Source of the DNA: a virus
Virus record (IMG/VR): IMGVR_UViG_3300044949_001245
Coordinates: 1 to 64,000 of that record
Reading direction: 5' to 3' (one strand)
DNA length: 64,000 nucleotides
Numbering within the stretch: the stretch's first letter is position 1; each line of letters starts with the position of its first letter. Both the position numbers and the translations under genes were made by a program. The notes beneath the pieces are model-generated. The model saw nothing but the letters and a program-made list of their open reading frames with translations, was not told the DNA's origin and made no database searches. Below, piece by piece: positions 28,576 to 61,130 of this stretch.

Positions 28576-30072
28576 TTACAGTGAACCGATGTTAATGAAA
28601 CGAACCATTTTCTTTGGCGCATACAGGAAAGGTGTTCCGTACAGCAAAATCATAAATCGGTACGCTGGACTCAAGATAGCCAAATCCATTTTCATCAGCG
28701 GAGCAAGTTGAGCAAACTCTACAACTTCATTATCCATTTGGAAAAGGATTGCTTGGTCAGTGTTCGGCATAAATCGGTTGCGGTCACGAACTGTACCAGC
28801 AGAAGCACCATCGTAACCCGCAGTGTTCTCAGCTACTGAGACATCAAACAAAGGATAGAAAGTAGCACCCGCAAAAGTGGTAGCATTCTTATTTGACCTG
28901 TAAATTCTGTACGATGTAGCTGGGGTTGTACCACCACCATCGGTAAAGTCAAGGTTAATTGAACCGCCAGCAACTACCGCAGCAGGAGCAGTTCCAATTT
29001 GTGTTAGGGCAGTTTCTCCGTATCTGTTCACGGCTGATACCGCATAGATGTAGTTTCCAGCGTCAGTTGTACTCCATTTAGAACTAGCATCAACAGCCAC
29101 AGGGGTCAAAGATACTGAAGTCACTGGGTTTGGCGCACTAGGTGATGTTGCCGAAGATGTTGAAGTTTTTGAAGGCAACTTCTTGAAGAAAATATCGTAA
29201 TTCAAACCAATTCGACCAAATTGTGAATCGAATGATTGAACACGCTGACCCATTACACCAGCTGAGGTCATTTCGGTGTTCGGCTGGATGAACTTGTTTC
29301 CATAGAACCCTTTAACGAAATCAGACATCACTTTTGGCGGAGCAAAAAGCTGGTTACCCAAACCAAAGTTTTCAACGATGCCATTCGCACCTGTTTCGAT
29401 GCTCTCCTCATCTAGTGCTGCGCCACGAAGGTCAACAACCACTTCTGAGTTCATGTATGAATCAAGGTTCAACCAGTTGTCGTTACGCTGATGTTGCGCC
29501 AAAAATCCGTTGAATTCTTGCGGAACCAAAGCCTCATCACCGAAATAAAGTGATTGGTTGATTTTACGCAAAATCCACATAGTTCCGTTCTTGATTTCAC
29601 GCTCCACGATGTTACCAACCATGTTGTTAACAAGTGTCATCGGATGAGTAACACTTTTTGTTACACCCAAGAACTTCACTAATTGCGCACGTCTGATGTA
29701 CAATGAGTCCTCTTCATTCGGCAATTCGCCCTCGTTGTAGAAACCACCTCTGTTAGTACCATAAGAGGACAATTGGTTGTATTCTTCAACAGTGTTGAAA
29801 GCAGACTTTTTCGGCACAACTTTCCATAGTGCGATGTCGCTTTCCTTAAATGTGAGGTGTTTCAAAGTCTTGTCCAGACTTTCAACTTTTAACGGAGCAC
29901 CCGATGCTGTCGACAAGTCTGTTGTTTCACGACCTGTAATCTGACCAGCTTCAAGTGCTTTGTTCAACTGGTTCAATTCTTCCATGTTTGAACCACCGAA
30001 AACTGCTCCCTGGCCGTTACCAGCATTCGCAGCAGCATTGGCATAATCTGCCAAATTTAATCCTAAACTCAT
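28576..30072 (-). CDS. Major capsid protein
   Basis: GAPLKVESLDKTLKHLT, TVEEYNQ, FYNEG, KFLGVTKSV, LFYGD-like and FNG motifs of SPO1/Twort-like capsids; strongly biased codon usage. Confidence 0.93.
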   Translation of the reverse strand: MSLGLNLADYANAAANAGNGQGAVFGGSNMEELNQLNKALEAGQITGRETTDLSTASGAPLKVESLDKTLKHLTFKESDIALWKVVPKKSAFNTVEEYNQLSSYGTNRGGFYNEGELPNEEDSLYIRRAQLVKFLGVTKSVTHPMTLVNNMVGNIVEREIKNGTMWILRKINQSLYFGDEALVPQEFNGFLAQHQRNDNWLNLDSYMNSEVVVDLRGAALDEESIETGANGIVENFGLGNQLFAPPKVMSDFVKGFYGNKFIQPNTEMTSAGVMGQRVQSFDSQFGRIGLNYDIFFKKLPSKTSTSSATSPSAPNPVTSVSLTPVAVDASSKWSTTDAGNYIYAVSAVNRYGETALTQIGTAPAAVVAGGSINLDFTDGGGTTPATSYRIYRSNKNATTFAGATFYPLFDVSVAENTAGYDGASAGTVRDRNRFMPNTDQAILFQMDNEVVEFAQLAPLMKMDLAILSPAYRFMILLYGTPFLYAPKKMVRFINIGSL

Positions 30073-30117: not shown

Positions 30118-30130
30118 TAATACCTGTTAC
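30118..30130 (-). promoter_or_regulatory. Candidate late promoter (GTAACAGGTATTA) for the major capsid gene
   Basis: Exact 13-mer, 46 nt upstream of the capsid ATG. Confidence 0.65.
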
Positions 30131-31707
30131 TGTACAATGTTTACGTTATGCTCTGATTTTAATCTCGCAATCACATTGTTACTCAGCGGTGAACCAGCCT
30201 CAAAACTCATCAAGGCTTTGGCAAATTCTTCATCATAACCGCCTTTTGCGATTGTAGCAGCATCAAGTACATTAAGGATTGCCCCTCTGTGTTCGCTGGT
30301 ATGAAGAGTGGCATTGCCGGCAGCACGACCTCCTTTTTCAAGATTGTCCGCTCCAAAGTTGCGCTCAACATAACCTTTAGTGATAGACTTGCGTCCAGTG
30401 GGCTGTGTAGAAAGTTCCTCTACTAATTCAAGTGCTTTTTGTAAGTCCTCTCTAGTAGCACGCAACTCTCTTTCTTGGCGCCACATTTTGCCTTTTAGCA
30501 ATTCTGTAGCATCCATCTGTGCCTTTACTAATTGTGCAAGGGCACGTACATTTTGCGTATTTGAACTTGTTGACTCGTTGATAGCTTTGATAATGTCAGT
30601 TTGGAAAGATTTTTTCACATACTTCATCCCCTTTTCTTCATTGTCCTCATCTTCATCTTGCTCCCCCTCTTCAGAGTTCATTTCATCTTCATTGTGAGAA
30701 TCAACGTCAATGTGAATTTCTTTTTTCAGACCTTTGCCTTTTTTCATTTCGTCATCGGCAGCATCTTTTTTCTTTTTCTTGGCATCATAACCATACTGCT
30801 CTTTCATGACTTTTGCAGCAACCTCTTCATCTGACTCTTCGTCATCTTCATCGGCATCATTGCTTTTTGGCTTTCCCATGGACTTTTTCGCTTTCTCCAA
30901 AAATGGATTTTCGTCCATATTTTCCAAACCCAGAGCACTCATGGCTTTCTGAAGGTCTTTGGTTTCGATTGTTTTTCCTTTTAACATTGCTTGTTCTATT
31001 TTAATTAACAGATTGTTGAATTGTTCTGCTTTTTCAATACTAATACCTGGGAATGTGTCAAAAATTTTATCATACCTTTGCTCCTCAGTCATATTCTTCA
31101 CCTTGTACCCATCTACGCTGGCGGGCATTAGCGCACGACCATCGCCTGTATCTAGTGTCTTTTTTGTATCAACATCATCCTCTTCATTCTTCTCCATATC
31201 GTAATCACACCCCTTTCCTTTAATAATATCAGCGAATGTTTGAGGATTTTTAGGCATGTGTGTAATAGCCAATCCTGTTATCTTTGCTTGCTTTACTATT
31301 TTAGGATTGGTAACGTCACGCTCAATAACAGTTCCCTCAATACTGTACCCTAGTCTGCGTGTCTTTGAGTCTTTCTGGAGAACTTCCGCAAGTTGATAAA
31401 CCTCTTTGGCTAAATCACTATTTGGATACAAATCAGTTTCTACATAAAACCCATCCTTGCGAATTTCTGCTTTGCATGGCTCACCTATGATTGTGGCTGG
31501 GCTGTTCTTGGCTTGGTGATGCCAATTCACAACTCCTGACTTTTTGAAATCTGAAATGTCAAACCCAGATGGGTCAAGAAATTCACCATCAGCATCTTTA
31601 TCCATAGTGGAGGCAATACCCCCTAGTCTCATCACTTCCTTTCCATTCTTGTCTTTCCCCTTACTTATTTCAACAGGGCACCAGAACTTAAATTTTTGCT
31701 CAGCCAT
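30127..31707 (-). CDS. Prohead protease with fused scaffold-like C-terminus
   Basis: GIAST..KDADGE, VNWHH, LGYSIEG, AITHMPKNP; long acidic and coiled-coil tail. Confidence 0.9.
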   Translation of the reverse strand: MAEQKFKFWCPVEISKGKDKNGKEVMRLGGIASTMDKDADGEFLDPSGFDISDFKKSGVVNWHHQAKNSPATIIGEPCKAEIRKDGFYVETDLYPNSDLAKEVYQLAEVLQKDSKTRRLGYSIEGTVIERDVTNPKIVKQAKITGLAITHMPKNPQTFADIIKGKGCDYDMEKNEEDDVDTKKTLDTGDGRALMPASVDGYKVKNMTEEQRYDKIFDTFPGISIEKAEQFNNLLIKIEQAMLKGKTIETKDLQKAMSALGLENMDENPFLEKAKKSMGKPKSNDADEDDEESDEEVAAKVMKEQYGYDAKKKKKDAADDEMKKGKGLKKEIHIDVDSHNEDEMNSEEGEQDEDEDNEEKGMKYVKKSFQTDIIKAINESTSSNTQNVRALAQLVKAQMDATELLKGKMWRQERELRATREDLQKALELVEELSTQPTGRKSITKGYVERNFGADNLEKGGRAAGNATLHTSEHRGAILNVLDAATIAKGGYDEEFAKALMSFEAGSPLSNNVIARLKSEHNVNIVQ

Positions 31708-32131: not shown

Positions 32132-34378
32132 CTACTTACTTTTATTGTTTTTTCTAACTTTCAATTTGCTTCTGTTTAGCACAATCGCAAAATCCGTACT
32201 ACCGCCCCAACCATTCTTTTGAATTATCATGTCGTAACCCTTTATTGCCGCATAAAACCCTCTGAACTCTCCATTAGGTCTTTTAGCAATGTCTGCCATT
32301 ATATGGTGTAGTGAAGAACTGCCCTGACCTCTCAACTTATTGACCTCGTCAGCTACAGCACGTAATTTATCTTGCGCATCTTTTGCTTCCTTTTTAACAG
32401 CTTCAATTTTGTCAGAATTTTTCAACTCTTTTTCAATCTCTTTATTTATCACACCATAGTGATTTTCTATCACGAAATCTCGCAACCTAGAATAGTGGTG
32501 ATTGTATTTTTTAGTGTTTGAATTTTTCTGCTTTACACTCCTATCTGCCACACCCTCATTCAACATGAATTTTTCTGATGAGAGTGGCAACTCTATCTCT
32601 AAAGTTCTGCCATTATCATGTTCCGTAATTTTCGCCCCTAGTGATTTCACAAGTGCTTGATAGTACCTTTTAACCTTACCAAATGAGTGAACCTCTGGGT
32701 CAGCGTAAACTATATCAGCCCTTGAATTAAGTGCGTCCAAAGCCTTTTGATTCCAACCCATATTATCCTTTACATCTTGAGCAATAATTTTTTCGATGTT
32801 CCTAGCTTTATCATTTAGCTTATCAACCTCATTTTTCAGGTCATCATACTCTTTTTTCTTTTCCTTAAACTCTTCTCCAAAGAACTCCTCATTCATCATC
32901 TCATCCAACTCTTGCGCATCAATTATGCGGACATCTTTATCTATGGCTATATCTATAACGTGACTTGAGTCTTGGCCAGCATAATCTAGTGCTATGCTGT
33001 AATCTGAATTTGGCGGTGGAGGATTTTTCTTGGTCTTGTTTACAGCAGCGTAAATTCCAGCTCCATACATTCCAACCATTCCATAAAAGCAATCATCTTT
33101 CTCCTTGAAATTCCTTATCCAAGTTTGAGCACTCACTCCTGAAGTTCCTGTTAGTCCACGCTGGATTAACTTTACATCGTCATCTTCTAGCAATTTGTCG
33201 AATTTTTTATCATCCAACAATTCAGGCTTTTTATCAAACCCACGCATCTTACAAATTTCAGACAAGAACATCCAACCAACCTTACTGTTTTGGTTAGTAA
33301 TCTTGCCCCCAGCTTTCTTTAATGCTTTTTCAATTTCTTTTTCTGTTAATTCTCTGTATGGGTCTTCATTTTCATAGTCATCATCTTCCAACCTAGTTTG
33401 TAGGTCAAAAAATCTTTTGGCCATCTTTATTTTCAAGTCTTTGTCTTCAATCAAAGACAAAATGGCTTTCTCTTTACTCAACAAATCTTTTATTTGATTG
33501 TTGATATCCTTTTGGGTCAAGTCATGAGTAATGGCTAAATTTTGCGACACCATTGAGTCCAATTCATCAACCTCATCGGTAAATGACGCCCCCTTATCAC
33601 GACCAGTGGCTGAGAACCTTAAAGAACCACCATTATCCACCCTATAAACCAGTCCGTCATCCTTATTGACTAGTATGTTATCATTCTTATACGCATCCCA
33701 ATTAGCCAGCAAACAATCAGCAACGTACCCTTTAAGAATTTCTTGTTTGAGGTTGTCGTCCAAGATATTATTCGCTGCCTCTGTATTCTCCATGTACTCA
33801 GACAGGATTGCTACGTTTGAAGTTCCCTTTTCGTAAATTTGCATTCTTGGAACAGTCAATCCAATCTCTTCATAGATTTTGGTAGCAAGATATTCCTCTT
33901 CAACGTGAGCTGGTGACGCACCCCTCTTCATTACATACTTCTTGCCTGTTGCTGGGTCTTCCAATAGCTTTGCTCCTGTGGAACCACCTAGTGTTTTATT
34001 AACAGGCACAAGTTTACTTATATCATCAGGAAAGTCATCGTAATCATCTGTTGCTTTTTTCTTTGGTTGTTTTACAGCTTTCCTCCAATCCAACTTCCCC
34101 CCTTTGGTCTTTTTTACGACATAAAGGACACCATTCTTTACTTTCTGTTCCCCCTCACGCAAAGCCTTAAAAAGATTTTCATCTGGCTCCAGTCCGTTGA
34201 GATAGTCATTGAATGTTTTAGCCTTAATCAACTCATGTTGTGTGTCGGACACCCAGCCAGTCTTTTCCCTAACTGACTCAAGTGCCTTTACCAGCGTGAA
34301 ATCGTCCAATAAGCCATCTTCATTAGCTTTAACAATTCGCTGGAACGAATTTTCAATATCAATGAAATTCTCCGACAT
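32132..34378 (-). CDS. Putative capsid-internal effector: HipA/PI-kinase-like domain plus ADP-ribosyltransferase-like domain
   Basis: Kinase-like motifs LGGSTGA..KYVMK..EEEYLA..DCLLANWD..NIL..RVDNGGSL; ART-like motifs IQRG..GMYGAGIY..ALDYA..KGYDMI..IVLNRS. Confidence 0.7.
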   Translation of the reverse strand: MSENFIDIENSFQRIVKANEDGLLDDFTLVKALESVREKTGWVSDTQHELIKAKTFNDYLNGLEPDENLFKALREGEQKVKNGVLYVVKKTKGGKLDWRKAVKQPKKKATDDYDDFPDDISKLVPVNKTLGGSTGAKLLEDPATGKKYVMKRGASPAHVEEEYLATKIYEEIGLTVPRMQIYEKGTSNVAILSEYMENTEAANNILDDNLKQEILKGYVADCLLANWDAYKNDNILVNKDDGLVYRVDNGGSLRFSATGRDKGASFTDEVDELDSMVSQNLAITHDLTQKDINNQIKDLLSKEKAILSLIEDKDLKIKMAKRFFDLQTRLEDDDYENEDPYRELTEKEIEKALKKAGGKITNQNSKVGWMFLSEICKMRGFDKKPELLDDKKFDKLLEDDDVKLIQRGLTGTSGVSAQTWIRNFKEKDDCFYGMVGMYGAGIYAAVNKTKKNPPPPNSDYSIALDYAGQDSSHVIDIAIDKDVRIIDAQELDEMMNEEFFGEEFKEKKKEYDDLKNEVDKLNDKARNIEKIIAQDVKDNMGWNQKALDALNSRADIVYADPEVHSFGKVKRYYQALVKSLGAKITEHDNGRTLEIELPLSSEKFMLNEGVADRSVKQKNSNTKKYNHHYSRLRDFVIENHYGVINKEIEKELKNSDKIEAVKKEAKDAQDKLRAVADEVNKLRGQGSSSLHHIMADIAKRPNGEFRGFYAAIKGYDMIIQKNGWGGSTDFAIVLNRSKLKVRKNNKSK

Positions 34379-34386
34379 AGTTTTTA

Positions 34387-35901
34387 TTACATTAGGTCAA
34401 GATGAGCCAAAGCCTTCATCAATTCATTACGCTCATCTTCTTTACGACCTTTGGTCAAAAATTTAGCAACCTCTGGCTCCCACTCTTTGACATCTCCAAA
34501 TAGCAATCTAGCTGTCGTTGGGTCAGCTTCAATAAGCTCATTTGCGTTATCTATTGACCTTTTAATCTCTAGTGCCTCTTTGAAAGTCCTTGAGCTAAAT
34601 TTAGCTGGGTCCATCTTACCAATGTTCTTTTTAATCAAATCGAACACCGCTTCACGTTCTGCTACATCGTCAGCCTTATTCTCCAATCTTGGAACACCTG
34701 TGAAGTTCATCTTGTGTTTAAGATGCTCCATCATGTCAAGTTTTTCTGACTTGGTGAATTGAATATCTTGTTTTAATGCTCTCGTGTAAACTGCGTTGAT
34801 ATGCTCATCTGCCGTCAAGTCATGTTGGTCCATGTTAGTCAAGAACAAAATCTTACCATTGAACTCAAATGGGTCTATATTGGCATTTTTGTTAGTGGAT
34901 TTTTTACCGACTATTCTCTTGCCTGAAGATGCGGTTGCTTTCTTCATAATGCCCATTGTTTCATCTTTTTTAAGAACTTCATCGGCATCGTCAAATACAA
35001 TGATTTTTCCGTTATGCTCTTTCAAAATTTGCGCCAGCTGAACAGGTGAGGTGATTTCAGGTGCCTCTACATAATCATAATCACTATCTCCAGGCTCATC
35101 AGTTTCAGGATTGAATGCCTTCTTTCCTAAATGCTCCGCAATCATGTGCATATTGAATGTTTTACCGACACCAGCACCGCCTGAAGCAATCATTAATGGA
35201 GAGTCAGTCCTAAAAAATTGTGCGTAAGTTTTATTGAGGTTGAAGATGTGTTGTTGTGGCTCTTCATAATCAGCGTCAGATGTCTTCATCTTATGTATAA
35301 AGGCATCCGCATCAATACGTTGTTGTTTAGTTTTTAAGCCACCAAATTTCTTTTTAATATAGGCTGGATTGGTCCACTCTTTACCCTCTTCCACATCCCC
35401 ATCTATTCCATCAAGTGTGTCACTTTCTCCATCGCCAGATGTATCGTCAGCATCGGTATCTGCAACTTGCTTTGTCTTTTTGTTGGCAGTTCCTGTTCCG
35501 AACATTTCTTTCATCTTCTTGAATTTTCCTGTATTCAAGTTGATGTCTGAAACATCTTCGCCACGTTTAACAAGCTCATCGTATGCCTCTTGTCGCAGCG
35601 TTGGGTCATTGTTAGGATTTTTAGCAAATGTCTTTATCTTATCTGCGTCTTGGGTCAACAAGAATGCTCTCAATTTTTGAACTTTGTTGCCATCGCCCTT
35701 ACCAGCTACATTTCCTGTAGTTCCTGTAATCTGCTTTTTGCCTTGTTGTGGCTTTCCTTTTCGCCAATCGAATTTTCCTGGCTTGATTTCAGTCCAGTAC
35801 CTAGTGATGCCGTCACTTCCGACTTTTGAATCACCGACTTGTCTAGCCTTGACCAAGTCTTCATTAAGTATGCTCTCTAAAACAGATGATGTCCTATTCA
35901 T
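34387..35901 (-). CDS. Putative capsid-internal AAA+ ATPase with N-terminal targeting-like modules
   Basis: Walker A GGAGVGKT, Walker B IIVFDDAD, FNGKILFLTN. ATG 35901 preferred over the GTG at 35928. Confidence 0.8.
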   Translation of the reverse strand: MNRTSSVLESILNEDLVKARQVGDSKVGSDGITRYWTEIKPGKFDWRKGKPQQGKKQITGTTGNVAGKGDGNKVQKLRAFLLTQDADKIKTFAKNPNNDPTLRQEAYDELVKRGEDVSDINLNTGKFKKMKEMFGTGTANKKTKQVADTDADDTSGDGESDTLDGIDGDVEEGKEWTNPAYIKKKFGGLKTKQQRIDADAFIHKMKTSDADYEEPQQHIFNLNKTYAQFFRTDSPLMIASGGAGVGKTFNMHMIAEHLGKKAFNPETDEPGDSDYDYVEAPEITSPVQLAQILKEHNGKIIVFDDADEVLKKDETMGIMKKATASSGKRIVGKKSTNKNANIDPFEFNGKILFLTNMDQHDLTADEHINAVYTRALKQDIQFTKSEKLDMMEHLKHKMNFTGVPRLENKADDVAEREAVFDLIKKNIGKMDPAKFSSRTFKEALEIKRSIDNANELIEADPTTARLLFGDVKEWEPEVAKFLTKGRKEDERNELMKALAHLDLM

Positions 35902-35929
35902 AGTGATAAATTTGATTTCATTTATCACT

Positions 35930-35951: not shown

Positions 35952-37379
35952 TCATCGTTGCCATTTGATAGGCACAGAACATCCGAAAAATTCAGTCATC
36001 ATTTTTTCACTTTCCTTAATGACTTCGCTTGAGTTTTCACCTTTGGCTAGTTTACTTAACCTCTTGTTATCCATAGAATTATCAATGACCCTCTTCATGT
36101 TTTTCACTGGGTCAAACAACAATTTTGCTAATTCAAAGTTATGTTTCACATCACGTAAATATTGAGAATTTTTCATTTTTAGCGCATCATTTAGGTATCC
36201 AGCGAACTGTTTTGGAGTAACATCCCATGGAACATAAATTGCCCGCAACTCATCACGAATTATATCGTCAATTTCACATTTTGGCTCAATAAGTCCTCTA
36301 GTATCTCTCAAAACAGGATATGAACCATTGATGATTGCTTCGATGGTAAATCCATTAAGATGCGTGTTAGAATACTGCGCATAATGTTTACTGAACGATG
36401 GGTCAATACTAAACTTGGCATTTTTCTGAACCATATAGACATCTTCATTAGACATGAAGCCCATATGTTCCATTCCGTATTTCAAGGCACGCTCCCAAAG
36501 ACTCATTCCTATATCACCCGCATCGCAATCTGGGTCAGTGCTTTTAGAAACAGTATATCTTGACTTAAACTTGTCTTTGTCTTGAGTGGTCATATAGTAC
36601 AACTCTATCCCTGACCCCCCTATCCACATGCTTGACCCCTTATCTAAATGAGGCATCAACGCCAACAAGTCCTCCATCTTTTTCATAGACTTGAAAACGT
36701 GAGCTGCGAAAAAGTCCACTGGTCTTTTCGTCATCGGTGTAAGGTGTAATTTCTCAGGTATGTATCTTGAGGCAAAATTTAATTGTCTAGGTATCGAAAA
36801 ATTTTCGCAACAGTTGTAAGCTGACAAGTGTACACAATCTAACAACGTGATTTTATCCTCCAAATACCTTATCCAGCTGTTCCGAATGTCGAAATAACCA
36901 TCATGTACTGCCATGACTTGCTTGACGCTAGATGGTAGGTCAAAAAACTTGGGCCAAAAATCTAGTCCTTTTGCCTCTTTGGTTTTGGTTGGCGTAAAAC
37001 TCCAGAACACTAAATCAACACCCTCCATAGCCTTGTGCCAAAGCTCAAGTGCATTATCCGCAAAAATCGGTATTCTGTTTGTATATGGAGGCAATATCCA
37101 ACCATAGTACGAATTTCTCCAATAGCCAGTAACCTCTGATTTTGTGTACCCCCCAGCTTGCGACCTGTTGTCTTGCTTACTTTGAAAATCTCCACTTTCA
37201 AGTTCCGCCAGTTTCTTTTCATATGAACCAGCTGGTATGGACTTATTGTAGGTGAGGAAAATGATGTCGACATCGTGACCCATTTCCTTAAACGCTTGAA
37301 CTCTACTTTCGACATTTTTTACAATGCCTCCGTATTTTGCGATGTCAAACGTACAAATTCTGATTTTTAATTTCTTCAT
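35952..37379 (-). CDS. Glycosyltransferase (GT-B fold)
   Basis: YGGIVKNV...FKEMGHDVDII, AVHDG, KSMKKMEDLL, MGFMSNEDV, GFTIEAIINGSYPV. Confidence 0.8.
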   Translation of the reverse strand: MKKLKIRICTFDIAKYGGIVKNVESRVQAFKEMGHDVDIIFLTYNKSIPAGSYEKKLAELESGDFQSKQDNRSQAGGYTKSEVTGYWRNSYYGWILPPYTNRIPIFADNALELWHKAMEGVDLVFWSFTPTKTKEAKGLDFWPKFFDLPSSVKQVMAVHDGYFDIRNSWIRYLEDKITLLDCVHLSAYNCCENFSIPRQLNFASRYIPEKLHLTPMTKRPVDFFAAHVFKSMKKMEDLLALMPHLDKGSSMWIGGSGIELYYMTTQDKDKFKSRYTVSKSTDPDCDAGDIGMSLWERALKYGMEHMGFMSNEDVYMVQKNAKFSIDPSFSKHYAQYSNTHLNGFTIEAIINGSYPVLRDTRGLIEPKCEIDDIIRDELRAIYVPWDVTPKQFAGYLNDALKMKNSQYLRDVKHNFELAKLLFDPVKNMKRVIDNSMDNKRLSKLAKGENSSEVIKESEKMMTEFFGCSVPIKWQR

Positions 37380-38029
37380 AACTTGATATAAAATTCTTCT
37401 GGTAACTGTTTATTGATATAACCTTGTTCAAAAAATAAAAAGCCACTTTGGGTCTTGTAATATTGTTTGAACAACGCAATTTTATCAACATGTTTCTCAC
37501 CAAAGGTGAACTCCAGATTGAACTTTGAATTTACCAAGCCATTAAGATACGCTTGATTGCGTCTTTTATATGAATGAGGAAAATCTCTATAAAACACATC
37601 TGCGACATCCTCCGTAACTACTCTGGTGAGCCAGTGGAACGGATGACCCACCCCCAAGCAAGTCACAATCAAGTACCCCTTTTTCTTGTACTGACTCACT
37701 ACAGTTTCCAATTCATCTACAACTGCTGCCAGATTTTCTTTCCCCATCATCCTTTGGCAGAACTTCATCGCTGTTTTGTCGTCCATCTCAGCGTGTTCCT
37801 TGTAGTACAACTTATGAAAATCCGTTGAGTCAGCCCTCGTTTCTAGCCTAGACAAACTTGCTCCGAAATGGTTACAAATTTCTTGGTCTTCAAGTAACCG
37901 CTTTGGATTGTTCTCTACTGTCAAAATGACCTTGTCACTGAAGTCCTTGCTATACAAATAGTGGCTAGCACTCAAAATTATGTCATCCGAATGAGGCTGG
38001 ATGAGCAATACCTTTTTTCCCATATTCAA
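37376..38029 (-). CDS. PIG-L/LmbE family N-acetyl-sugar deacetylase
   Basis: LIQPHSDDIILS, GVGHPFH, FYRDFPHS, K..LFKQYYKTQ; stop overlaps the GT start (ATGA). Confidence 0.85.
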   Translation of the reverse strand: MNMGKKVLLIQPHSDDIILSASHYLYSKDFSDKVILTVENNPKRLLEDQEICNHFGASLSRLETRADSTDFHKLYYKEHAEMDDKTAMKFCQRMMGKENLAAVVDELETVVSQYKKKGYLIVTCLGVGHPFHWLTRVVTEDVADVFYRDFPHSYKRRNQAYLNGLVNSKFNLEFTFGEKHVDKIALFKQYYKTQSGFLFFEQGYINKQLPEEFYIKL

Positions 38030-38036
38030 ATTAAAT

Positions 38037-38945
38037 TTAAGGTGTTATGGTAACTTTAACTTTGGAAGTTCTCTTGACTCCATGCGTAACACGCTGAACC
38101 ACGAAATCTTTTTTGTTATCATCCCATACACTATTTGGCGGAACAACATGAAGTATTGACCTTGCCCAAGGATGAGCTGGCCCAACGACTGGTAGTTGGT
38201 CTTTTCGCCCTATATTGTTTCCGTTTGCTATTAAATCCTGAATTTCATATATCACAGGCTTTTCACCAGGTGTTCCGTAATTCTTTTCACAATGCTTACA
38301 AACTCCTGGAAAAGTTTGTTTATACACTTTAGCATCTGACCCATAGTCATCTAAAATTTGCTGTGCCCTCCCAAATCCATATGCTTCTTGTAAGGTGTAA
38401 TCAGCAATCCTTGAAAAATCCCTAGCCCAGTCTTGTGTTAATTTTCTCAACTCACTAGCCAACCATTGTTTGCCTTTGTTTTTTTCAAAAGCCTCAATTG
38501 TCTTTTTGCTTATTATTTTACGAATTTTTGCTTGTTCAGCAGCACTCGCTGTTAATATGCGTTGACTGAAATTGTTCGCTATTTTATTGCCCAAGCCTGA
38601 TAAGTCCGTATATGCCCTGTTTTTCAAAAATTGTAACCCCGCAATCCTAGTTTTACTCTGTGGCCTTACTAACTCATTAGCAAACCACTCATCAAAATCC
38701 TTTCTCTTTACCTTAAAAGATTTTTTGCCGCCTAGAATTTGAGCCATTATTCCGAAATAATACGCACGCTCAATCTCTCCAATCCCTCCAAAAAGAACTT
38801 TATCATCAGGGTCAATCCCATGCGTTTGTAACAATATCTTGTCATATGGAGACAAATAAGACATACCCAATTGAGTTCCGATGAACAAAACTTGATTGAG
38901 TTTTATCATATCTATCATTTTCCATATGTCCTGTATGCTAAACAT
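38037..38945 (-). CDS. Head morphogenesis protein (MuF/SPP1 gp7-like)
   Basis: RDFSRIA..TLQEA, CKHC, GPAHPWARS (HPxCR-like). Confidence 0.75.
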   Translation of the reverse strand: MFSIQDIWKMIDMIKLNQVLFIGTQLGMSYLSPYDKILLQTHGIDPDDKVLFGGIGEIERAYYFGIMAQILGGKKSFKVKRKDFDEWFANELVRPQSKTRIAGLQFLKNRAYTDLSGLGNKIANNFSQRILTASAAEQAKIRKIISKKTIEAFEKNKGKQWLASELRKLTQDWARDFSRIADYTLQEAYGFGRAQQILDDYGSDAKVYKQTFPGVCKHCEKNYGTPGEKPVIYEIQDLIANGNNIGRKDQLPVVGPAHPWARSILHVVPPNSVWDDNKKDFVVQRVTHGVKRTSKVKVTITP

Positions 38946-39894: not shown

Positions 39895-40770
39895 TTAAAG
39901 TGAAAGTAACATGTCGATGAGTTCTTGTTGAGGGAACATATCAACTTTGTCCTTTCTAACATTAGTGTGGTTCCAAAGTCCTGGAGTGTTCTCGCACATT
40001 TTTATGTCGAACACATCAAACGCATCAACCCCCTTTTGTCTTATCAAATCAGGCAACCCCTTGCGAACATCAATATTGTCTCTGTTCGCTATGAATAAAA
40101 TCAAATCTTTCAACGCATCAATCTGCTTGTCCGAATATCTATGCCAAACGCTGAAACCTCTAAATGGCTTTTTCAAAGTAACTATTTGGCTTGGGTGTAC
40201 CGCAGTTCCAACATACGTTTTTCCGCTCACCACTTGTCCGAAATTACAAACTTCAATCCCTACGCTATTTCTATGGATTGGAGCATTGCCTGTTCCTAAA
40301 TGCCATGCGTAACCGCCAGCTGGAAATGCTTGTACTACTTCTCCATCATGCTTGGCATCACCATTAGTAACTTTTTGACCACCTAAAACAAACTCAGTCG
40401 CAATAGCACCCCTCGTGTCTTTCGCCCAATTATTTACAGTGTTGTAAGGATTTTCCCAACCAGCTGTATGATGTAAAAACAACCAATTCTTTTTAGTTGG
40501 TCCATCAAAATACTCCCCTTTTGGAAGATAGTGTTGTTTAATCATCACAGTATCAGAAATCTTACTTTGGTCTGACGCATCAGTTGTAGCCAATCCCATA
40601 GCATTCCAAGTTTGTCTGCCTACGATGCCATCTACAACCAACCTATTTTCTTGTTGCCATTTTTTTACGGCAGCATCCGTTTTTGGACCAAAGACACCAT
40701 CATCATTCAATCCAAGAAATCTCTGGAGTTGCTTGACTTGCTCCCCCTTACTTCCAATTTTAAGTATCAT
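39895..40770 (-). CDS. Endolysin: PG-binding domain plus N-acetylmuramoyl-L-alanine amidase (Amidase_2)
   Basis: DGVFGPKT..AVKKWQ..DGIVG PG_binding_1 repeats; LHHTAG, AWHLG, SVGIEVCN, HTNVRKDKVD. Confidence 0.92.
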   Translation of the reverse strand: MILKIGSKGEQVKQLQRFLGLNDDGVFGPKTDAAVKKWQQENRLVVDGIVGRQTWNAMGLATTDASDQSKISDTVMIKQHYLPKGEYFDGPTKKNWLFLHHTAGWENPYNTVNNWAKDTRGAIATEFVLGGQKVTNGDAKHDGEVVQAFPAGGYAWHLGTGNAPIHRNSVGIEVCNFGQVVSGKTYVGTAVHPSQIVTLKKPFRGFSVWHRYSDKQIDALKDLILFIANRDNIDVRKGLPDLIRQKGVDAFDVFDIKMCENTPGLWNHTNVRKDKVDMFPQQELIDMLLSL

Positions 40771-47613: not shown

Positions 47614-48048
47614 TCAATTTTGTTTATCTAATAACTGTCGCTTGAACTTATTTATGTGCTTGTTGATGAAAGTTATTTCGATGTCGTCATCAGATGAATG
47701 ATGAATGAAAATGCGCCATGATTTCATTTTCACTATCATTTCATTTTCACCGCCTGAACTATCTGGTATTGAGTACGTTTCAGATGATTTTGATGAGTAA
47801 ATGAAATTGACTACATCCATGAAACACTCTACATCATCTTGCTCCGAAAATGAAAAAGTGACTAAACTGTTAACATCAGTGTTCAACAATTCAGCCACTC
47901 TAGTGTAATGTTCTACTTCCGTATTGGTCAGACTAAATTCACTTACTGCTTTGTAACGTAAACTTCTGTTGTTTGCGGACTGAACACACTCCGTTGCTTT
48001 CCCTCTCCAATTTTCATCTTCCAATACTTCTGGAACTCGCATAGCCAC
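47614..48048 (-). CDS. Hypothetical protein
   Basis: 144 aa; the start overlaps the upstream gene by about 100 nt and is uncertain. Confidence 0.55.
   Translation of the reverse strand: MAMRVPEVLEDENWRGKATECVQSANNRSLRYKAVSEFSLTNTEVEHYTRVAELLNTDVNSLVTFSFSEQDDVECFMDVVNFIYSSKSSETYSIPDSSGGENEMIVKMKSWRIFIHHSSDDDIEITFINKHINKFKRQLLDKQN
47629..47641 (-). promoter_or_regulatory. Candidate late promoter motif (ACAGTTATTA)
   Basis: Plus strand TAATAACTGTCGC, 37 nt upstream of ATG 47592, at the start of the portal operon. Confidence 0.5.
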
Positions 48049-48983
48049 ATTTCTATTTGGTGTAATGTAATTTTACCCTCTTTTGGTGTAACTATTTTAT
48101 ATTTGTTATTTTCTTTATCCCAATCCAAGTATTTGAAATCACCTATCTCAGCAAGTTTAGCCTTGGCCATGTCACGCAACATGTAAATTCCTTTTATCTG
48201 TTCGCCCTTACTTAATGACGGAAAAATTAACCGAATGCCGATGGAAGCACCTGGTCCAACATTCGTAAAATCATCTTGGTCAAACTTCATCAGTTGTATT
48301 CCTGAATATCTTGGCGCATATGTAAAGTCCTGATAAAATTCATGAGCAATAAAATCAGCAACTGCCGGCAATGTTTTCAAATAGCTTATTAACTCCTTTG
48401 GCTCTTTTGCGCTCAATAGCAGTTTGTTTATTTTTGGGATAGCAGAATGTATTGACGGAACAACTACTTGCGTGTAGCACCAATCTCTTTTCGCACCAGG
48501 ACAAGCCTGTGAATTTATCAGATACGCATTTGTATAAGGATTGTTTCCAGTTTCTCTGTATCCGTATATCAACTCAGCCCACTCACCCTTATCGTACTGG
48601 TCATAGCTTGGAAACATACCATCAAAAGATTTTTTCTGGCTACCTATCCACTCAAATGTTTCAGGGCAGTTAAATATCCTAAAAAGCATGATTTTCCAAA
48701 CCAAGTCCTTTCGACTATTTGGCTCCATCAAAACGTGCTTTATTTGCCACTGCGAATGTCTGTCCAGTTCCCGAAAAACATTTGTGAATTTATGATTGGA
48801 CATAAATGGGTCTTGGCTCCATGGTCTTGATTCATTCTTTACAAATCTGCGGTGCCATATTTCTTGTCGCTCAAACATGGTTTGAAAAAATAAACCTAGA
48901 TTTTCATCATCCACTTCCTTGTCCGATGATGGTAGGGCATTCCCCCAAGACTTCATACCATAAGCTGTTCTAAATTCTTCCAT
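47943..48983 (-). CDS. Alpha-glutamyl/putrescinyl thymine pyrophosphorylase clade 1-like (amino acid:DNA transferase superfamily) DNA hypermodification protein
   Basis: ERQEIWHRR..PWSQDP...KFTNVFRELDR, FRIFN, YTNAY, FIAHEFYQD, VGPGA..GI, IEMWLCEFQKY. Confidence 0.85.
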   Translation of the reverse strand: MEEFRTAYGMKSWGNALPSSDKEVDDENLGLFFQTMFERQEIWHRRFVKNESRPWSQDPFMSNHKFTNVFRELDRHSQWQIKHVLMEPNSRKDLVWKIMLFRIFNCPETFEWIGSQKKSFDGMFPSYDQYDKGEWAELIYGYRETGNNPYTNAYLINSQACPGAKRDWCYTQVVVPSIHSAIPKINKLLLSAKEPKELISYLKTLPAVADFIAHEFYQDFTYAPRYSGIQLMKFDQDDFTNVGPGASIGIRLIFPSLSKGEQIKGIYMLRDMAKAKLAEIGDFKYLDWDKENNKYKIVTPKEGKITLHQIEMWLCEFQKYWKMKIGEGKQRSVFSPQTTEVYVTKQ

Positions 48984-49461
48984 TGATGATTTTTTTTAAT
49001 TTCTCCACATAAACTTTGTCAGAGGCATATACAGATTGTAGCTTTCCGAAATACTCATCTTGAGTCAACCCTTTGGCGTACCTACATTGCCAAATAAGAT
49101 AGTCCATCATACATTCTTTCCAGCTAGTATAAATCGCATAGCCATCTTTCTTACCAATAGCTGTAGTTGGTCTTTGAGCAGCCAATCTCATCCCGACTAA
49201 ATTGTTGTTGTTTTTAGCAACAGATGATTTCAAGTTTCCGCTTTCTAGCATAACCTGAGCTACAACTACCTCTGGGTGCTCAAACTTACAACGCTTTACA
49301 AACTTTTCTACATTCTCTATCGTCAAGGTGTCTTCATCGCAAGTGATGTTGAGTTCATAACTTACATTTTGCTTTACTGTCTTTCTCAACTTTAGCGAAA
49401 CGCCAAGCGCAACAACAGCAAGTATCAAGGCTGTGATGCTAGTTACATTTTTGAAATTCAT
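48970..49461 (-). CDS. Glucosaminidase (GH73-like) domain protein with N-terminal signal anchor
   Basis: AQVMLESG..S...NNNLVGM, YAIYTSW, YASDKVY; TM ITALILAVVALGVSL. Confidence 0.85.
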   Translation of the reverse strand: MNFKNVTSITALILAVVALGVSLKLRKTVKQNVSYELNITCDEDTLTIENVEKFVKRCKFEHPEVVVAQVMLESGNLKSSVAKNNNNLVGMRLAAQRPTTAIGKKDGYAIYTSWKECMMDYLIWQCRYAKGLTQDEYFGKLQSVYASDKVYVEKLKKIINGRI

Positions 49462-60179: not shown

Positions 60180-60394
60180 AAAACTTTTATTACATTAAAT
60201 GGATTCAGACAAAAACAATCGCCATCATCCTTGCGTATTAAATAGATGTCTTGTGGCGAAACAAATAGCACATCTCCATTTTTATCAAATACTCTGTCTG
60301 TTGATTGTACTTTGTCTAACACTACACCTGTTCCCTCTACTCTTTCATTTTCAATGTAGTATGAAAATGCTATTTTCTTTCCGATGATGCTCAT
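60176..60394 (-). CDS. Hypothetical protein
   Basis: 72 aa; ATGA-coupled. Confidence 0.65.
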   Translation of the reverse strand: MSIIGKKIAFSYYIENERVEGTGVVLDKVQSTDRVFDKNGDVLFVSPQDIYLIRKDDGDCFCLNPFNVIKVF

Positions 60395-60858
60395 ATGTTT
60401 GATGTTTTAGTTTGTTGTTCCGTATTGGTATCAGTGCTTCCAAATCCACCCTCACCTCTTTCGCTTTCCTCTAGTTCTTCAACTTCCTCAAGCTCAATAA
60501 ATGGTATCGGTTGGATGATTATTTGACCGACTTTCTCCCCTACCTTGTAGATGTCTTTACCATGTAGGTTTGCTCCTGTGACTTGAAAGCGCAAGCAAAT
60601 TTCTCCCCTATATCCTGAGTCAATTACTCCTACGCAGTTTTTCAAAATCAAATCTTTTTTTGTTACTGAACTTCTTGCGTAAAGCAACCCAACATACCCC
60701 TCTGGAATTTCCATAGCCAGACCAGTGTGGTACTGAACGAACTTTCCGTTTGAGTCCATATGAATTTGGATAGCTGTTAAGTCCATGCCGGCATCGCCCT
60801 TTTTAGCATAGGTTGGTATCACCGCCCTATCATCTAGTTTTTTAATTTTTATTTTCAT
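60391..60858 (-). CDS. dut: Trimeric dUTPase
   Basis: DAGMDL, TGLAMEIP, RSS, GVIDSGYRGEI, ERGEGGFGSTD; start at ATG 60858 (MKIKIKK). Confidence 0.96.
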   Translation of the reverse strand: MKIKIKKLDDRAVIPTYAKKGDAGMDLTAIQIHMDSNGKFVQYHTGLAMEIPEGYVGLLYARSSVTKKDLILKNCVGVIDSGYRGEICLRFQVTGANLHGKDIYKVGEKVGQIIIQPIPFIELEEVEELEESERGEGGFGSTDTNTEQQTKTSNI

Positions 60859-61130
60859 CTCAGATATTTTTTGTCTAACACTACCGCATTGCCTACAATA
60901 CAATCATTGAACCTCCGTGTCTTTTCATAGAACACTTGCGTGGCTATTTCATTGAGTGGTTTGTTCAACAATTTTCCCTCTTCATTAACCACCATTAGGG
61001 TGTTCTCATCAAGCCAAACTATTTCGATGTATCCATCGACAGCCTTTTGAAGAAATTCCAGTGATGCTTCTTTGTCGTCATTTTTTACGACCTCGACACT
61101 TCCGTCAGTTTTGATAATTTTTGCTTCCAT
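60855..61130 (-). CDS. DUF3846-like protein
   Basis: LEFLQKAVDGYIE...VVNEEGKL...LNEIAT...IVGNAV. Confidence 0.8.
   Translation of the reverse strand: MEAKIIKTDGSVEVVKNDDKEASLEFLQKAVDGYIEIVWLDENTLMVVNEEGKLLNKPLNEIATQVFYEKTRRFNDCIVGNAVVLDKKYLR

What the first reader, a model, noticed from the sequence alone, without database searches (positions are those of the whole stretch)
35952..38029. Coupled PIG-L deacetylase and GT-B glycosyltransferase: possible glucosamine-type modification of DNA or virion
Seen: a PIG-L-type deacetylase (PHSDD, GHPFH) overlaps a 475-aa GT-B gene by ATGA, inside the head module right after MuF. Known: GT plus PIG-L pairs (MshA/MshB, BshA/BshB, PIG-A/PIG-L) transfer GlcNAc and then de-N-acetylate it; phage GT-B enzymes glycosylate modified bases. 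Inference: the phage adds a free-amine sugar to hydroxymethylated bases or to capsid proteins. A cationic sugar on DNA could block restriction and ease packaging. The acceptor cannot be determined from the sequence.
Basis: partly seen in the sequence, partly recalled or inferred. Interest (0 to 1): 0.8.

Follow-up and report, generated by a model that had tools for sequence, protein, structure and literature searches.

The report
Phage amino-sugar DNA modification gene pair
Two overlapping phage genes, a sugar-adding enzyme and a sugar deacetylase, most likely put an N-acetyl sugar on the hydroxymethyl-uracil in the phage's own DNA and then strip the acetyl group, which would give a positively charged sugar base not found in the papers searched.

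Summary
A 215/217-aa LmbE/PIG-L-fold protein (37376-38029, minus strand) overlaps a 475-aa GT-B glycosyltransferase (35952-37379) by ATGA, between portal and protease/capsid genes of an 88.6-kb myovirus. Neither hits Pfam directly, but profiles, conserved motifs and high-confidence models confirm both folds.

The pair is conserved. PIG-L lies upstream of the GT in 71 of 75 related viral loci, and the other 4 are cut at the GT.

The acceptor is most likely DNA, not the virion:
- The genome is hmU-type, with an SPO1-gp29-like dUMP hydroxymethylase homologue, aGPT-Pplase1, dUTPase and an HD deoxynucleotidase.
- In 77 of 80 loci of the GT's sister subfamily, a thymidylate-synthase homologue (43) or a TET/JBP dioxygenase (34) lies within 10 kb, mostly directly beside the GT.
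- One relative is a GT::aGPT-Pplase1 fusion.
- In 19 of 21 longer relatives the PIG-L domain is fused to the same C-terminal domain, which carries a TAGT (PF20691) hit in 17. TAGT is the T2/T6 DNA-glucose transferase family.

All of this is comparative inference. The sugar, the linkage and the deacetylation itself are unproven.

None of my six literature searches found a deacetylase step in DNA hypermodification. The scan has found this pair before on other genomes, and two follow-ups reached the same reading.

The parts
37376..38029 (-). LmbE/PIG-L-fold putative de-N-acetylase (217 aa from TTG 38029; more likely 215 aa from ATG 38023)
   Evidence: ORF and start context. Invariant H13, D15, D16, H129, P130, H132, plus R44, E47, D48, in 42 homologues. 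18 of 42 relatives hit PF02585. Profile hit to Dbv21. Model pLDDT 94.3, and Foldseek matches at E<1e-3 only to teicoplanin deacetylase Orf2*.
35952..37379 (-). GT-B fold glycosyltransferase (475 aa), candidate DNA 5-hydroxymethyluracil HexNAc transferase
   Evidence: ORF. Model pLDDT 93.3. Foldseek matches include glycogen synthase, SdgB, T4 alpha-GT, TarM and BshA and phage 'DNA alpha-GT' models.
37376..37379 (-). ATGA stop/start overlap coupling the two genes
   Evidence: Sequence read on the minus strand.
47943..48983 (-). aGPT-Pplase1 / HMUDK_hel protein (346 aa), a marker of thymidine hypermodification and a likely partner in the pathway
   Evidence: PF18723, E 9.6e-51. Homologues in M6-, ViI- and YuA-like phages. 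Directly upstream of GT relatives in 35 of 80 loci and fused to a GT in P0237.
60391..60903 (-). dUTPase / dCTP-deaminase-like protein (170 aa), a supplier of dUMP
   Evidence: PF00692, E 4.5e-20. A homologue lies just downstream of the GT relative in L090.
38037..38945 (-). MuF-like head protein (302 aa; assignment is a lead only), the conserved upstream neighbour
   Evidence: No Pfam or PHROGs hit. Atlas lead. Present in 69 of 75 related loci and in both Bacteroidota outgroup phages.
34387..35928 (-). NrdC.10-like AAA ATPase with an N-terminal extension (513 aa), the conserved downstream neighbour; its role in the pathway is unknown
   Evidence: PF00004 (weak) and phrog_1250. A paralogue at 51295-52239 matches T4-type nrdC.10 genes. 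Present in 62 of 75 loci.

Best explanation
The two genes form a post-replicative DNA hypermodification step.

1. The phage replaces thymine with 5-hydroxymethyluracil, using a dUMP-hydroxymethylase-type thymidylate-synthase homologue (G000 85237-86490, outside the window). A dUTPase and an HD 5'-deoxynucleotidase support this step.
2. The GT-B enzyme (35952-37379) transfers an N-acetylhexosamine from a nucleotide sugar to the hydroxymethyl group of hmU in DNA, or to a group installed there. It may act together with the aGPT-Pplase1-like protein (47943-48983).
3. The metal-dependent PIG-L enzyme (37376-38029) removes the N-acetyl group. This leaves a protonatable amino sugar on the base.
4. 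In relatives, radical SAM/SPASM and FkbM-type methyltransferase genes next to the pair probably tailor the sugar further.

Shown here: the folds, the conserved catalytic motifs, the tight gene coupling, the hmU gene set, and the genomic links and fusions to DNA base-modification enzymes.

Inferred: the acceptor, the sugar, the order of steps, and a protective or charge-neutralising effect.
For: Folds and motifs:
- PIG-L.
- GT-B.

Coupling:
- ATGA overlap.
- PIG-L lies upstream of the GT in 71 of 75 related IMG/VR loci. The 4 misses have the GT at the locus edge.

hmU genome:
- The 417-aa TS homologue keeps the Cys and the Asn of 'PTNV'.
- Its best phage matches are SPO1 gp29, SP8, SP82G and the SP-10 'dUMP hydroxymethylase', at 35-38% identity.
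- aGPT-Pplase1, E 9.6e-51.
- dUTPase and a YfbR-like HD deoxynucleotidase.
- 5 of 5 near-complete clade relatives have the TS homologue and aGPT-Pplase1.

GT family (231 representatives at E<=1e-3). In 80 loci of the sister subfamily:
- a TS homologue lies within 10 kb in 43, and within 1.1 kb downstream or overlapping in 40;
- aGPT-Pplase1 is present in 38, and within 1.1 kb upstream in 35;
- a TET/JBP dioxygenase is present in 34 of the remaining 37.
P0237 is a natural GT::aGPT-Pplase1 fusion. The key residues (GG loop, HD, FKxxK, DxS) are shared between the subfamilies.

PIG-L family:
- 19 of 21 longer relatives are PIG-L fused to one shared C-terminal domain. 17 of them carry a precomputed PF20691 (TAGT) hit.
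- TAGT is the T2/T6 enzyme family that adds glucose to glucosyl-hmC DNA (PMC13216743, passages).
- In L166 the fusion sits at the same syntenic place, with radical SAM and FkbM genes and no GT-B.
- P0367 is a radical SAM/SPASM::PIG-L fusion.

Outgroups:
- Chryseobacterium phage MA9V-3 and Bacteroides phage DAC19 keep portal, MuF-like, protease and capsid genes. They lack PIG-L, the GT, the TS homologue and aGPT-Pplase1.

Precedent in print:
- GT-B enzymes next to 5mYOX/ThyS glycosylate DNA, and HexNAc-5hmC is made by other phage GTs (10.1101/2023.12.21.572611, passages).
- GTs are frequent next to phage T-dioxygenases (PMC13229309, passages).
Against: - No chemistry was tested.
- In this clade the pair sits in the head module, 10.5 kb from aGPT-Pplase1 and about 48 kb from the TS homologue. 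It is not beside them as in the sister subfamily.
- The clade's GTs lie on a long branch (about 1.8 changes per column) from the TS- and TET-linked GTs and share only about 29% identity with them. A change of acceptor cannot be excluded.
- 0 of 80 sister-subfamily loci and 0 of 3 complete sister genomes have a PIG-L (positive control). The deacetylation step therefore has no independent replicate outside this phage group and its TAGT-fusion relatives.
- Bacillus phage YungSlug has the TS homologue and aGPT-Pplase1 without the pair.
- Structural matches to T4 alpha-GT (TM 0.54) are no better than those to protein- or teichoic-acid-GlcNAc transferases such as SdgB and TarM.
- Net charge and pI of both families are unremarkable.
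- No 5-HMUDK-type kinase was recognised among the 60 of about 109 ORFs that I scanned. The role of aGPT-Pplase1 here is therefore unclear.
- The TET/JBP neighbours were not shown to act on T rather than on 5mC.
Confidence: 0.68

Rival explanations
1. Virion protein glycosylation. The GT adds GlcNAc to a capsid or other head protein, as mycobacteriophage and chlorovirus GTs do (recalled), and PIG-L deacetylates it. This would give a cationic capsid glycan.
For: The position between the MuF-like gene and the protease/capsid genes is conserved in 69-71 of 75 loci. The genes are tightly packed with head genes, with no excess of promoter- or terminator-like sites. Top structural matches include the protein O-GlcNAc transferases SdgB and GtfA. 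The capsid protein has a Ser/Thr/Pro-rich stretch.
Against: The GT's relatives sit beside or are fused to DNA base-modification genes in 77 of 80 loci. PIG-L relatives are fused to TAGT, a DNA-sugar GT family. The outgroups with the same head genes lack the pair, and they also lack the hmU genes. A DNA methylase gene is inserted within the cluster in L011 and L025.
Confidence: 0.1
2. DNA is the target, but the GT does not act on hmU directly. It glycosylates a hydroxyl on an adduct installed by the aGPT-Pplase1-like transferase, or it adds a second sugar. PIG-L then deacetylates that glycan.
For: The cassette aGPT-Pplase1 - GT - TS homologue is found in 35-40 of 80 sister loci, and a GT::aGPT-Pplase1 fusion exists. 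TAGT in T2/T6 adds a sugar onto a sugar. aGPT-Pplases are now described as amino-acid:DNA transferases (PMC13229309, passage).
Against: 34 sister loci pair the GT with a TET/JBP dioxygenase and have no detectable aGPT-Pplase1 within 10 kb. The GT can therefore work without it. No 5-HMUDK-type kinase, which known aGPT pathways need (PMC5889632, passages), was recognised in the ORFs I scanned.
Confidence: 0.14
3. The PIG-L-fold protein is not a sugar de-N-acetylase. It hydrolyses another amide or ester, for example on an acylated base adduct or a small-molecule cofactor, or it makes a thiol-type metabolite with the GT as BshA/BshB do.
For: The LmbE/PIG-L superfamily includes enzymes with other substrates (recalled). 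The third motif residue is Phe/Met/Thr rather than the Asp of 'HPDH'. BshA is among the GT's structural matches.
Against: The nearest solved relatives (Orf2*, Dbv21) and the Pfam family are GlcNAc de-N-acetylases. The domain is always next to or fused with a glycosyltransferase, either GT-B or TAGT. No BshC/MshC-like ligase was seen in the ORFs scanned.
Confidence: 0.06

Closest known systems
T4 DNA alpha-glucosyltransferase (AGT; PF11440 as named in PMC13216743)
   Same: GT-B fold. Acts after replication on a 5-hydroxymethylpyrimidine in phage DNA. It is among the top structural matches (1y6f, E 6e-11, TM 0.54).
   Different: No detectable sequence similarity (no Pfam hit). AGT transfers glucose to hmC and has no deacetylase partner. 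Here the base is probably hmU and the sugar probably a HexNAc.
Metavirome GT-B DNA glycosyltransferases next to 5mYOX/ThyS (Pyle et al., bioRxiv 10.1101/2023.12.21.572611; GT53, GT66, GT94)
   Same: GT-B enzymes whose nearest solved folds are T4 GT, BshA and MshA. They lie beside TET-like dioxygenases or thymidylate-synthase homologues, as the sister subfamily found here does.
   Different: I could not compare sequences because theirs were not on hand. Those tested modify 5hmC with Kdo or heptose-like sugars. The words 'deacetylase' and 'glucosamine' do not occur in that text. In this clade the GT has moved to the head module.
GT plus PIG-L/LmbE pairs of small-molecule pathways: BshA/BshB, MshA/MshB, and the teicoplanin GlcNAc transferase with Orf2*/Dbv21
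   Same: The same two-step logic: a GT-B transfers GlcNAc, then a metal-dependent LmbE-fold enzyme de-N-acetylates it. Orf2* and Dbv21 are the nearest solved relatives of the phage PIG-L, and BshA is among the GT matches.
   Different: Those acceptors are malate, inositol phosphate or a glycopeptide (recalled). Here the acceptor is most likely DNA. Sequence identity is 16-17% in the structural alignments.
T2/T6 beta-glucosyl-HMC-alpha-glucosyltransferase family, TAGT (PF20691)
   Same: A DNA-sugar glycosyltransferase family. In relatives it is fused to the same PIG-L domain at the same syntenic position.
   Different: GT-A fold (PMC13216743). It is absent from this genome, where a GT-B takes its place.
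Thymidine hypermodification by 5-HMUDK kinase plus aGPT-Pplase/AADT (phages M6, ViI, SP10, PhiW-14; PMC5889632, PMC8989533)
   Same: hmU made by a dUMP hydroxymethylase and modified after replication. An aGPT-Pplase1 homologue is present. The end product carries a positive charge.
   Different: Those pathways append amino acids or polyamines through a phosphorylated intermediate. Here no kinase was recognised, and a glycosyltransferase plus a deacetylase are the conserved partners.
Base J (beta-D-glucosyl-hydroxymethyluracil) of trypanosomes
   Same: A sugar on hmU in DNA (described in PMC13229309).
   Different: Eukaryotic. hmU is made by JBP dioxygenases and the GT is GT-A-like. The sugar is glucose, with no amino group.

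Membership tests
PIG-L / LmbE deacetylases (PF02585) | Match to the Pfam model above its threshold | tested here: not met
   The window protein has no Pfam hit even at E<=10. 18 of 42 homologues hit PF02585 at E<=0.01, best 6e-06.
PIG-L / LmbE deacetylases (PF02585) | N-terminal (A/P)H(P/A/S)DD motif and a later HxxH motif that supply the metal ligands and the general base (roles recalled from MshB and Orf2*) | tested here: met
   PHSDD at 12-16 and HPFH at 129-132. H13, D15, D16, H129 and H132 are invariant in 42 sequences. Both motifs align to PHLDD and HPDH of Dbv21.
PIG-L / LmbE deacetylases (PF02585) | LmbE-type alpha/beta fold | tested here: met
   Model pLDDT 94.3. The only 5 Foldseek PDB hits at E<1e-3 are Orf2* deacetylase chains, TM 0.57-0.62.
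PIG-L / LmbE deacetylases (PF02585) | De-N-acetylase activity on a GlcNAc conjugate | not testable with these tools
   Needs an enzyme assay.
GT-B glycosyltransferases (GT4/GT5-like) | Two Rossmann-like domains with an interdomain cleft | tested here: met
   Model pLDDT 93.3, pTM 0.89. 289 PDB matches at E<=1e-3, and almost all of those listed are glycosyltransferases.
GT-B glycosyltransferases (GT4/GT5-like) | Match to Pfam GT models | tested here: inconclusive
   The window protein gives only Glyco_transf_5 at E 0.053. Among 42 homologues, 14 hit Glyco_transf_5, 5 Glycos_transf_1 and 3 Glyco_transf_4.
GT-B glycosyltransferases (GT4/GT5-like) | C-terminal E-x7-E motif of GT4 enzymes (recalled) | tested here: not met
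   The corresponding stretch reads N-G-F-T-I-E-A-I-I-N-G, with N342 and E347 invariant. The spacing is shorter and the first position is Asn.
Phage DNA 5-hydroxymethylpyrimidine glycosyltransferases (by gene context) | Gene adjacent to the enzyme that makes the hydroxymethyl base (TS homologue or TET/JBP) | tested here: not met
   In this genome the GT is about 48 kb from the TS homologue and 10.5 kb from aGPT-Pplase1. The feature is met by the sister subfamily in 77 of 80 loci.
Phage DNA 5-hydroxymethylpyrimidine glycosyltransferases (by gene context) | Co-occurrence in one genome with a hydroxymethylpyrimidine-forming enzyme | tested here: met
   The own genome has it. So do 5 of 5 near-complete relatives. 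2 of 2 Bacteroidota outgroups lack both the GT and the TS homologue.
Phage DNA 5-hydroxymethylpyrimidine glycosyltransferases (by gene context) | Transfer of a sugar to hmU or hmC DNA | not testable with these tools
   Needs an assay on hmU DNA.
T4 alpha-glucosyltransferase family (PF11440) | Sequence match to the family model | tested here: not met
   No such hit in the Pfam scans of the window protein or of its 42 homologues. There is only fold similarity.
TAGT (PF20691) | Match to the family model | tested here: not met
   No match in the whole genome at E<=0.01. TAGT is found only fused to PIG-L in relatives.

The most novel reading that the evidence does not exclude
A large clade of Bacteroidota-type myoviruses carries a small 'DNA glycan' gene cluster in its head module. 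A GT-B, or in sister lineages a TAGT fused to the deacetylase, puts a HexNAc on hmU. A PIG-L enzyme unmasks the amine, giving a cationic 'amino base J'. Radical SAM/SPASM and FkbM methyltransferase genes then tailor the sugar. Across the wider family, the GT-B works with the aGPT-Pplase1/AADT-like protein as a kinase-independent partner. This would be the first enzymatic deacetylation on DNA-bound sugar, and a third route besides polyamine and amino-acid adducts to positively charged thymine replacements.
Probability: 0.4. Interest if true: 0.85.

Novelty: new variant of a known kind. Interest (0 to 1): 0.72.

Why it matters
Phage DNA hypermodifications decide which restriction, CRISPR and type IV defence systems can cut a phage. 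They also supply enzymes for DNA labelling and sequencing chemistry. Known sugar modifications are neutral or acidic. Known cationic modifications are amino acids or polyamines.

A de-N-acetylated hexosamine on hmU would combine the two. It would add a new enzyme class (LmbE/PIG-L) to DNA modification. It would also give a testable explanation for a gene pair that is core to a widespread and almost uncultured phage group: 291 PIG-L and at least 89 GT cluster representatives, on contigs of up to 125 kb.

The fusions and cassettes found here name concrete enzyme sets to express: GT::aGPT-Pplase1, PIG-L::TAGT, radical SAM::PIG-L, and aGPT-Pplase1 - GT - TS homologue.

Tried and rejected
- Direct Pfam and PHROGs scans of both proteins found nothing useful.
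- phmmer of the GT against PDB sequences found nothing, and its profile gave only a chance-level endolysin hit.
- blastn and tblastn of the pair against 50,697 phage records found no match. No cultured relative is therefore in that collection.
- Net charge and pI as a sign of DNA binding were uninformative.
- I considered the AAA513 protein and its 314-aa paralogue as the missing hmU DNA kinase and rejected this. They match T4-type nrdC.10 ATPases found in many phages without hmU.
- The radical SAM/SPASM family has no counterpart in known thymidine-hypermodifying phages of the phage collection. Its one weak hit is to an unannotated faecal phage record.
- The Stenotrophomonas phage DLP3 record lists a PIG-L deacetylase near a BshA-like GT and sugar genes (PMC7326821, tables). 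It is not a detectable homologue of this pair, and its function is unknown.
- Complex prediction of the GT with the aGPT-Pplase1-like protein gave no verdict (score 0.00). This says nothing either way.
- I did not test whether the TET/JBP neighbours are T- or 5mC-dioxygenases, whether C5-methyltransferases lie nearby, or whether the genome has a 5-HMUDK kinase.
- Supplementary files of the papers were not opened. The GT sequences and contig lists of Pyle et al. may include this family.
- The claim that a deacetylase step is not in print rests on searches, and on term searches inside four papers. The library lacks most subscription journals, and Iyer et al. 2013 was not held.
Full report
**Observation.** The window is the first 64 kb of an 88,603-bp single-contig virus record in which nearly all genes lie on the minus strand.
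- A 217-aa ORF (37376-38029; TTG start, with an ATG two codons in at 38023) and a 475-aa ORF (35952-37379) share ATGA at 37376-37379.
- They lie between the portal gene (44571-46205) and the protease/scaffold (30127-31707) and major capsid (28576-30072) genes.
- The phage is a myovirus, with tail sheath and baseplate genes.
- Its capsid protein is nearest to Bacteroides phages DAC16-23 (48%), Chryseobacterium phage MA9V-3 (41%) and SPO1-like Bacillus phages (36-39%).

**What the two proteins are.** Neither hits Pfam or PHROGs directly.

For the small protein:
- 291 homologues were found.
- In an alignment of 42, H13, D15 and D16 (PHSDD) and H129, P130 and H132 (GHPxH) are invariant, as are R44, E47 and D48.
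- 18 of the 42 hit PF02585 PIG-L.
- The profile's best PDB hit is the pseudoaglycone deacetylase Dbv21 (E 0.0035), with both motifs aligned.
- An AlphaFold model (pLDDT 94.3) matches only the teicoplanin deacetylase Orf2* at E<1e-3 (TM 0.57-0.62).

For the large protein:
- At least 89 homologues were found.
- 14, 5 and 3 of 42 hit Glyco_transf_5, Glycos_transf_1 and Glyco_transf_4.
- The model (pLDDT 93.3) is a GT-B fold. Its matches include glycogen synthase, SdgB, T4 alpha-glucosyltransferase, TarM, HepE and BshA, all near TM 0.5. Among viral models it matches phage 'DNA alpha-GT' and SP-15 glycosyltransferases.
- The fold does not tell the acceptor.

**Conservation.** A profile scan of IMG/VR returned 75 loci with a GT of 42-84% identity.
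- tblastn finds the PIG-L gene upstream in 71. In the other 4 the GT is at the edge of the locus.
- The order is portal ... MuF-like - PIG-L - GT - AAA ATPase - 748-aa protein - 136-aa protein - protease - capsid.
- In 11 loci, extra ORFs lie between PIG-L and the GT. Others lie between the MuF-like gene and PIG-L.
- The inserted genes fall into these families, with one to three members of each scanned:
  - a radical SAM + SPASM enzyme (20 loci);
  - GIY-YIG/NUMOD homing endonucleases (14 loci);
  - an FkbM-type methyltransferase (L006, L008);
  - an N6/N4 DNA methylase (L011, L025).

**The genome is hmU-type.**
- Outside the window, next to a PolIII-alpha gene, lies a 417-aa thymidylate-synthase homologue. 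It keeps the catalytic Cys and the uracil-specifying Asn (the residue roles are recalled).
- Its best phage matches are SPO1 gene 29, SP8, SP82G and the SP-10 'dUMP hydroxymethylase'.
- The window encodes an aGPT-Pplase1/HMUDK_hel protein (47943-48983, E 9.6e-51). It has homologues in M6-, ViI- and YuA-like phages.
- The window also encodes a dUTPase-like protein, and a YfbR-like HD 5'-deoxynucleotidase lies beside the polymerase.
- Five of five near-complete clade relatives have the TS homologue and aGPT-Pplase1.

**Wider relatives of the GT.** A profile search of 1.84 billion representatives gave 231 hits. They include a large sister subfamily of 410-460 aa. Eighty IMG/VR loci of that subfamily were examined.
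- A TS homologue lies within 10 kb in 43. In 40 of these it is within 1.1 kb downstream or overlapping.
- aGPT-Pplase1 is present in 38, and in 35 of these it is within 1.1 kb upstream.
- Of the 37 loci without either, 33 have a ~450-aa protein directly downstream. One member of that cluster was scanned and is a Tet_JBP dioxygenase. By phmmer, 34 loci have it and none of them has the TS homologue.
- Thus 77 of 80 loci place the GT within 10 kb of an enzyme that makes a 5-hydroxymethylpyrimidine, mostly directly beside it.
- P0237 (829 aa) is a natural fusion of this GT (residues 9-446) to an aGPT-Pplase1 domain (507-743).
- A tree was built from 74 rows. Duplicates and rows under 380 aa were dropped, and every third row of A2 was used. 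It puts the PIG-L-clade GTs in one long-branched group and the TET-linked GTs in one clade among the TS-linked ones.
- No PIG-L lies within 10 kb in any of the 80 loci, nor in 3 complete genomes of that subfamily. The same profile finds it in 3 of 3 clade genomes.

**Wider relatives of the PIG-L.** Among proteins longer than 380 aa, 21 hold this PIG-L domain at 36-44% identity.
- Seventeen carry PF20691, which the genome search tool names TAGT.
- Nineteen share that C-terminal domain by phmmer.
- PMC13216743 (passages read) describes PF20691 as the T2/T6 beta-glucosyl-HMC-alpha-glucosyltransferase, which adds glucose to glucosylated hmC in DNA.
- In locus L166 the fusion sits at the same syntenic place. 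The order there is MuF-like - 197-aa ORF - radical SAM - FkbM methyltransferase - PIG-L::TAGT - AAA - 748-aa homologue - protease. No GT-B is detectable in that locus.
- P0367 fuses the radical SAM/SPASM enzyme to PIG-L.
- The deacetylase therefore keeps company with two unrelated glycosyltransferase folds. One of them belongs to a family known to work on DNA-bound sugar.

**Outgroups.**
- MA9V-3 and DAC19 share portal, MuF-like, protease and capsid genes in the same order. They lack the GT, PIG-L, the TS homologue and aGPT-Pplase1.
- Bacillus phage YungSlug has the TS homologue and aGPT-Pplase1 but not the pair.
- The pair is therefore not needed for this type of head. It appears only where the hmU genes are present, although the hmU genes can exist without it.

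**Mechanism proposed.** hmU enters DNA through the hydroxymethylase route. The GT-B transfers a HexNAc to it, possibly helped by the aGPT-Pplase1-like protein. PIG-L removes the acetyl group. Relatives add radical-SAM and methyl tailoring.
- Shown: the folds, the motifs, the coupling, the gene contexts and the fusions.
- Inferred: the acceptor atom, the sugar (HexNAc is deduced only from the deacetylase and from GlcNAc-using structural neighbours), the order of steps, and any role in restriction evasion or packaging.

**Against.**
- The clade's GT is divergent and relocated.
- The structural matches do not favour DNA enzymes over protein or teichoic-acid GlcNAc transferases.
- No hmU kinase was recognised.
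- Only 60 of about 109 ORFs were scanned against family libraries.

**Literature.**
- Passages of Pyle et al. (10.1101/2023.12.21.572611) show that GT-B and GT-A phage enzymes beside 5mYOX/ThyS glycosylate DNA, and that HexNAc-5hmC exists. They do not mention a deacetylase or glucosamine.
- PMC13229309 links phage T-dioxygenases with GTs.
- PMC5889632 and PMC8989533 describe the kinase/aGPT-Pplase routes, with no deacetylase.
- Six library searches found no paper describing a PIG-L/LmbE step in DNA modification.
- The class is known, but this variant seems undescribed within what I could search.

**Earlier scan notes.** Earlier notes show the same pair on at least five other genomes. Two follow-up reports reached the same reading. 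A note on this genome gave me the lead to the aGPT-Pplase1 gene, which I then tested.

Noticed in passing
window 32132-34378 and 34387-35928: The two genes downstream of the GT are conserved with it. One is a 748-aa protein with a weak HipA-like kinase hit (present in 56 of 75 loci). The other is a 513-aa NrdC.10-like AAA ATPase (present in 62 of 75 loci). The ATPase has a 314-aa paralogue at 51295-52239 (phrog_1250). Their role, in the pathway or as head cargo, is open.
   Followed up: partly
L039:8389-9357, L053:7684-8640 and 18 further loci; P0367: A ~320-aa radical SAM + SPASM enzyme is inserted just upstream of PIG-L in 20 related loci and is fused to PIG-L in P0367. It is absent from this genome. 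It is a candidate sugar-tailoring enzyme.
   Followed up: partly
L031:9312-10004, L002:2548-3189, L038:2239-3102 and 11 further loci: GIY-YIG/NUMOD homing-endonuclease genes are inserted between the MuF-like, PIG-L and GT genes in 14 related loci.
   Followed up: partly
P0237 (829 aa, metagenome representative): A natural fusion of the GT-B family to an aGPT-Pplase1 domain. The cassette aGPT-Pplase1 - (FkbM methyltransferase) - GT - TS homologue occurs in ~62-kb phage contigs such as L081.
   Followed up: partly
L095-L115, L122-L154 (34 loci): A sister GT subfamily lies directly upstream of a ~450-aa Tet_JBP dioxygenase in phages that also carry a peptide deformylase and T4-like clamp and clamp-loader genes. 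Whether the dioxygenase acts on T or on 5mC was not tested.
   Followed up: no
window 48970-49461: A 163-aa protein with an N-terminal hydrophobic stretch and a Glucosaminidase (PF01832) domain lies directly upstream of aGPT-Pplase1. It is a second cell-wall hydrolase besides the amidase endolysin at 39895-40770. The tail protein at 15215-17266 also has an endolysin-like domain.
   Followed up: no
G000 81001-86490 (outside the window): A YfbR-like HD 5'-deoxynucleotidase, a 1204-aa PolIII-alpha with a PHP domain, and the TS homologue form one tight block. This fits exclusion of dTTP during replication.
   Followed up: partly
window 28576-30072: The major capsid protein has a Ser/Thr/Pro-rich stretch followed by what looks by eye like an Ig/FN3-like insertion (roughly residues 300-400). 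This was not analysed.
   Followed up: no
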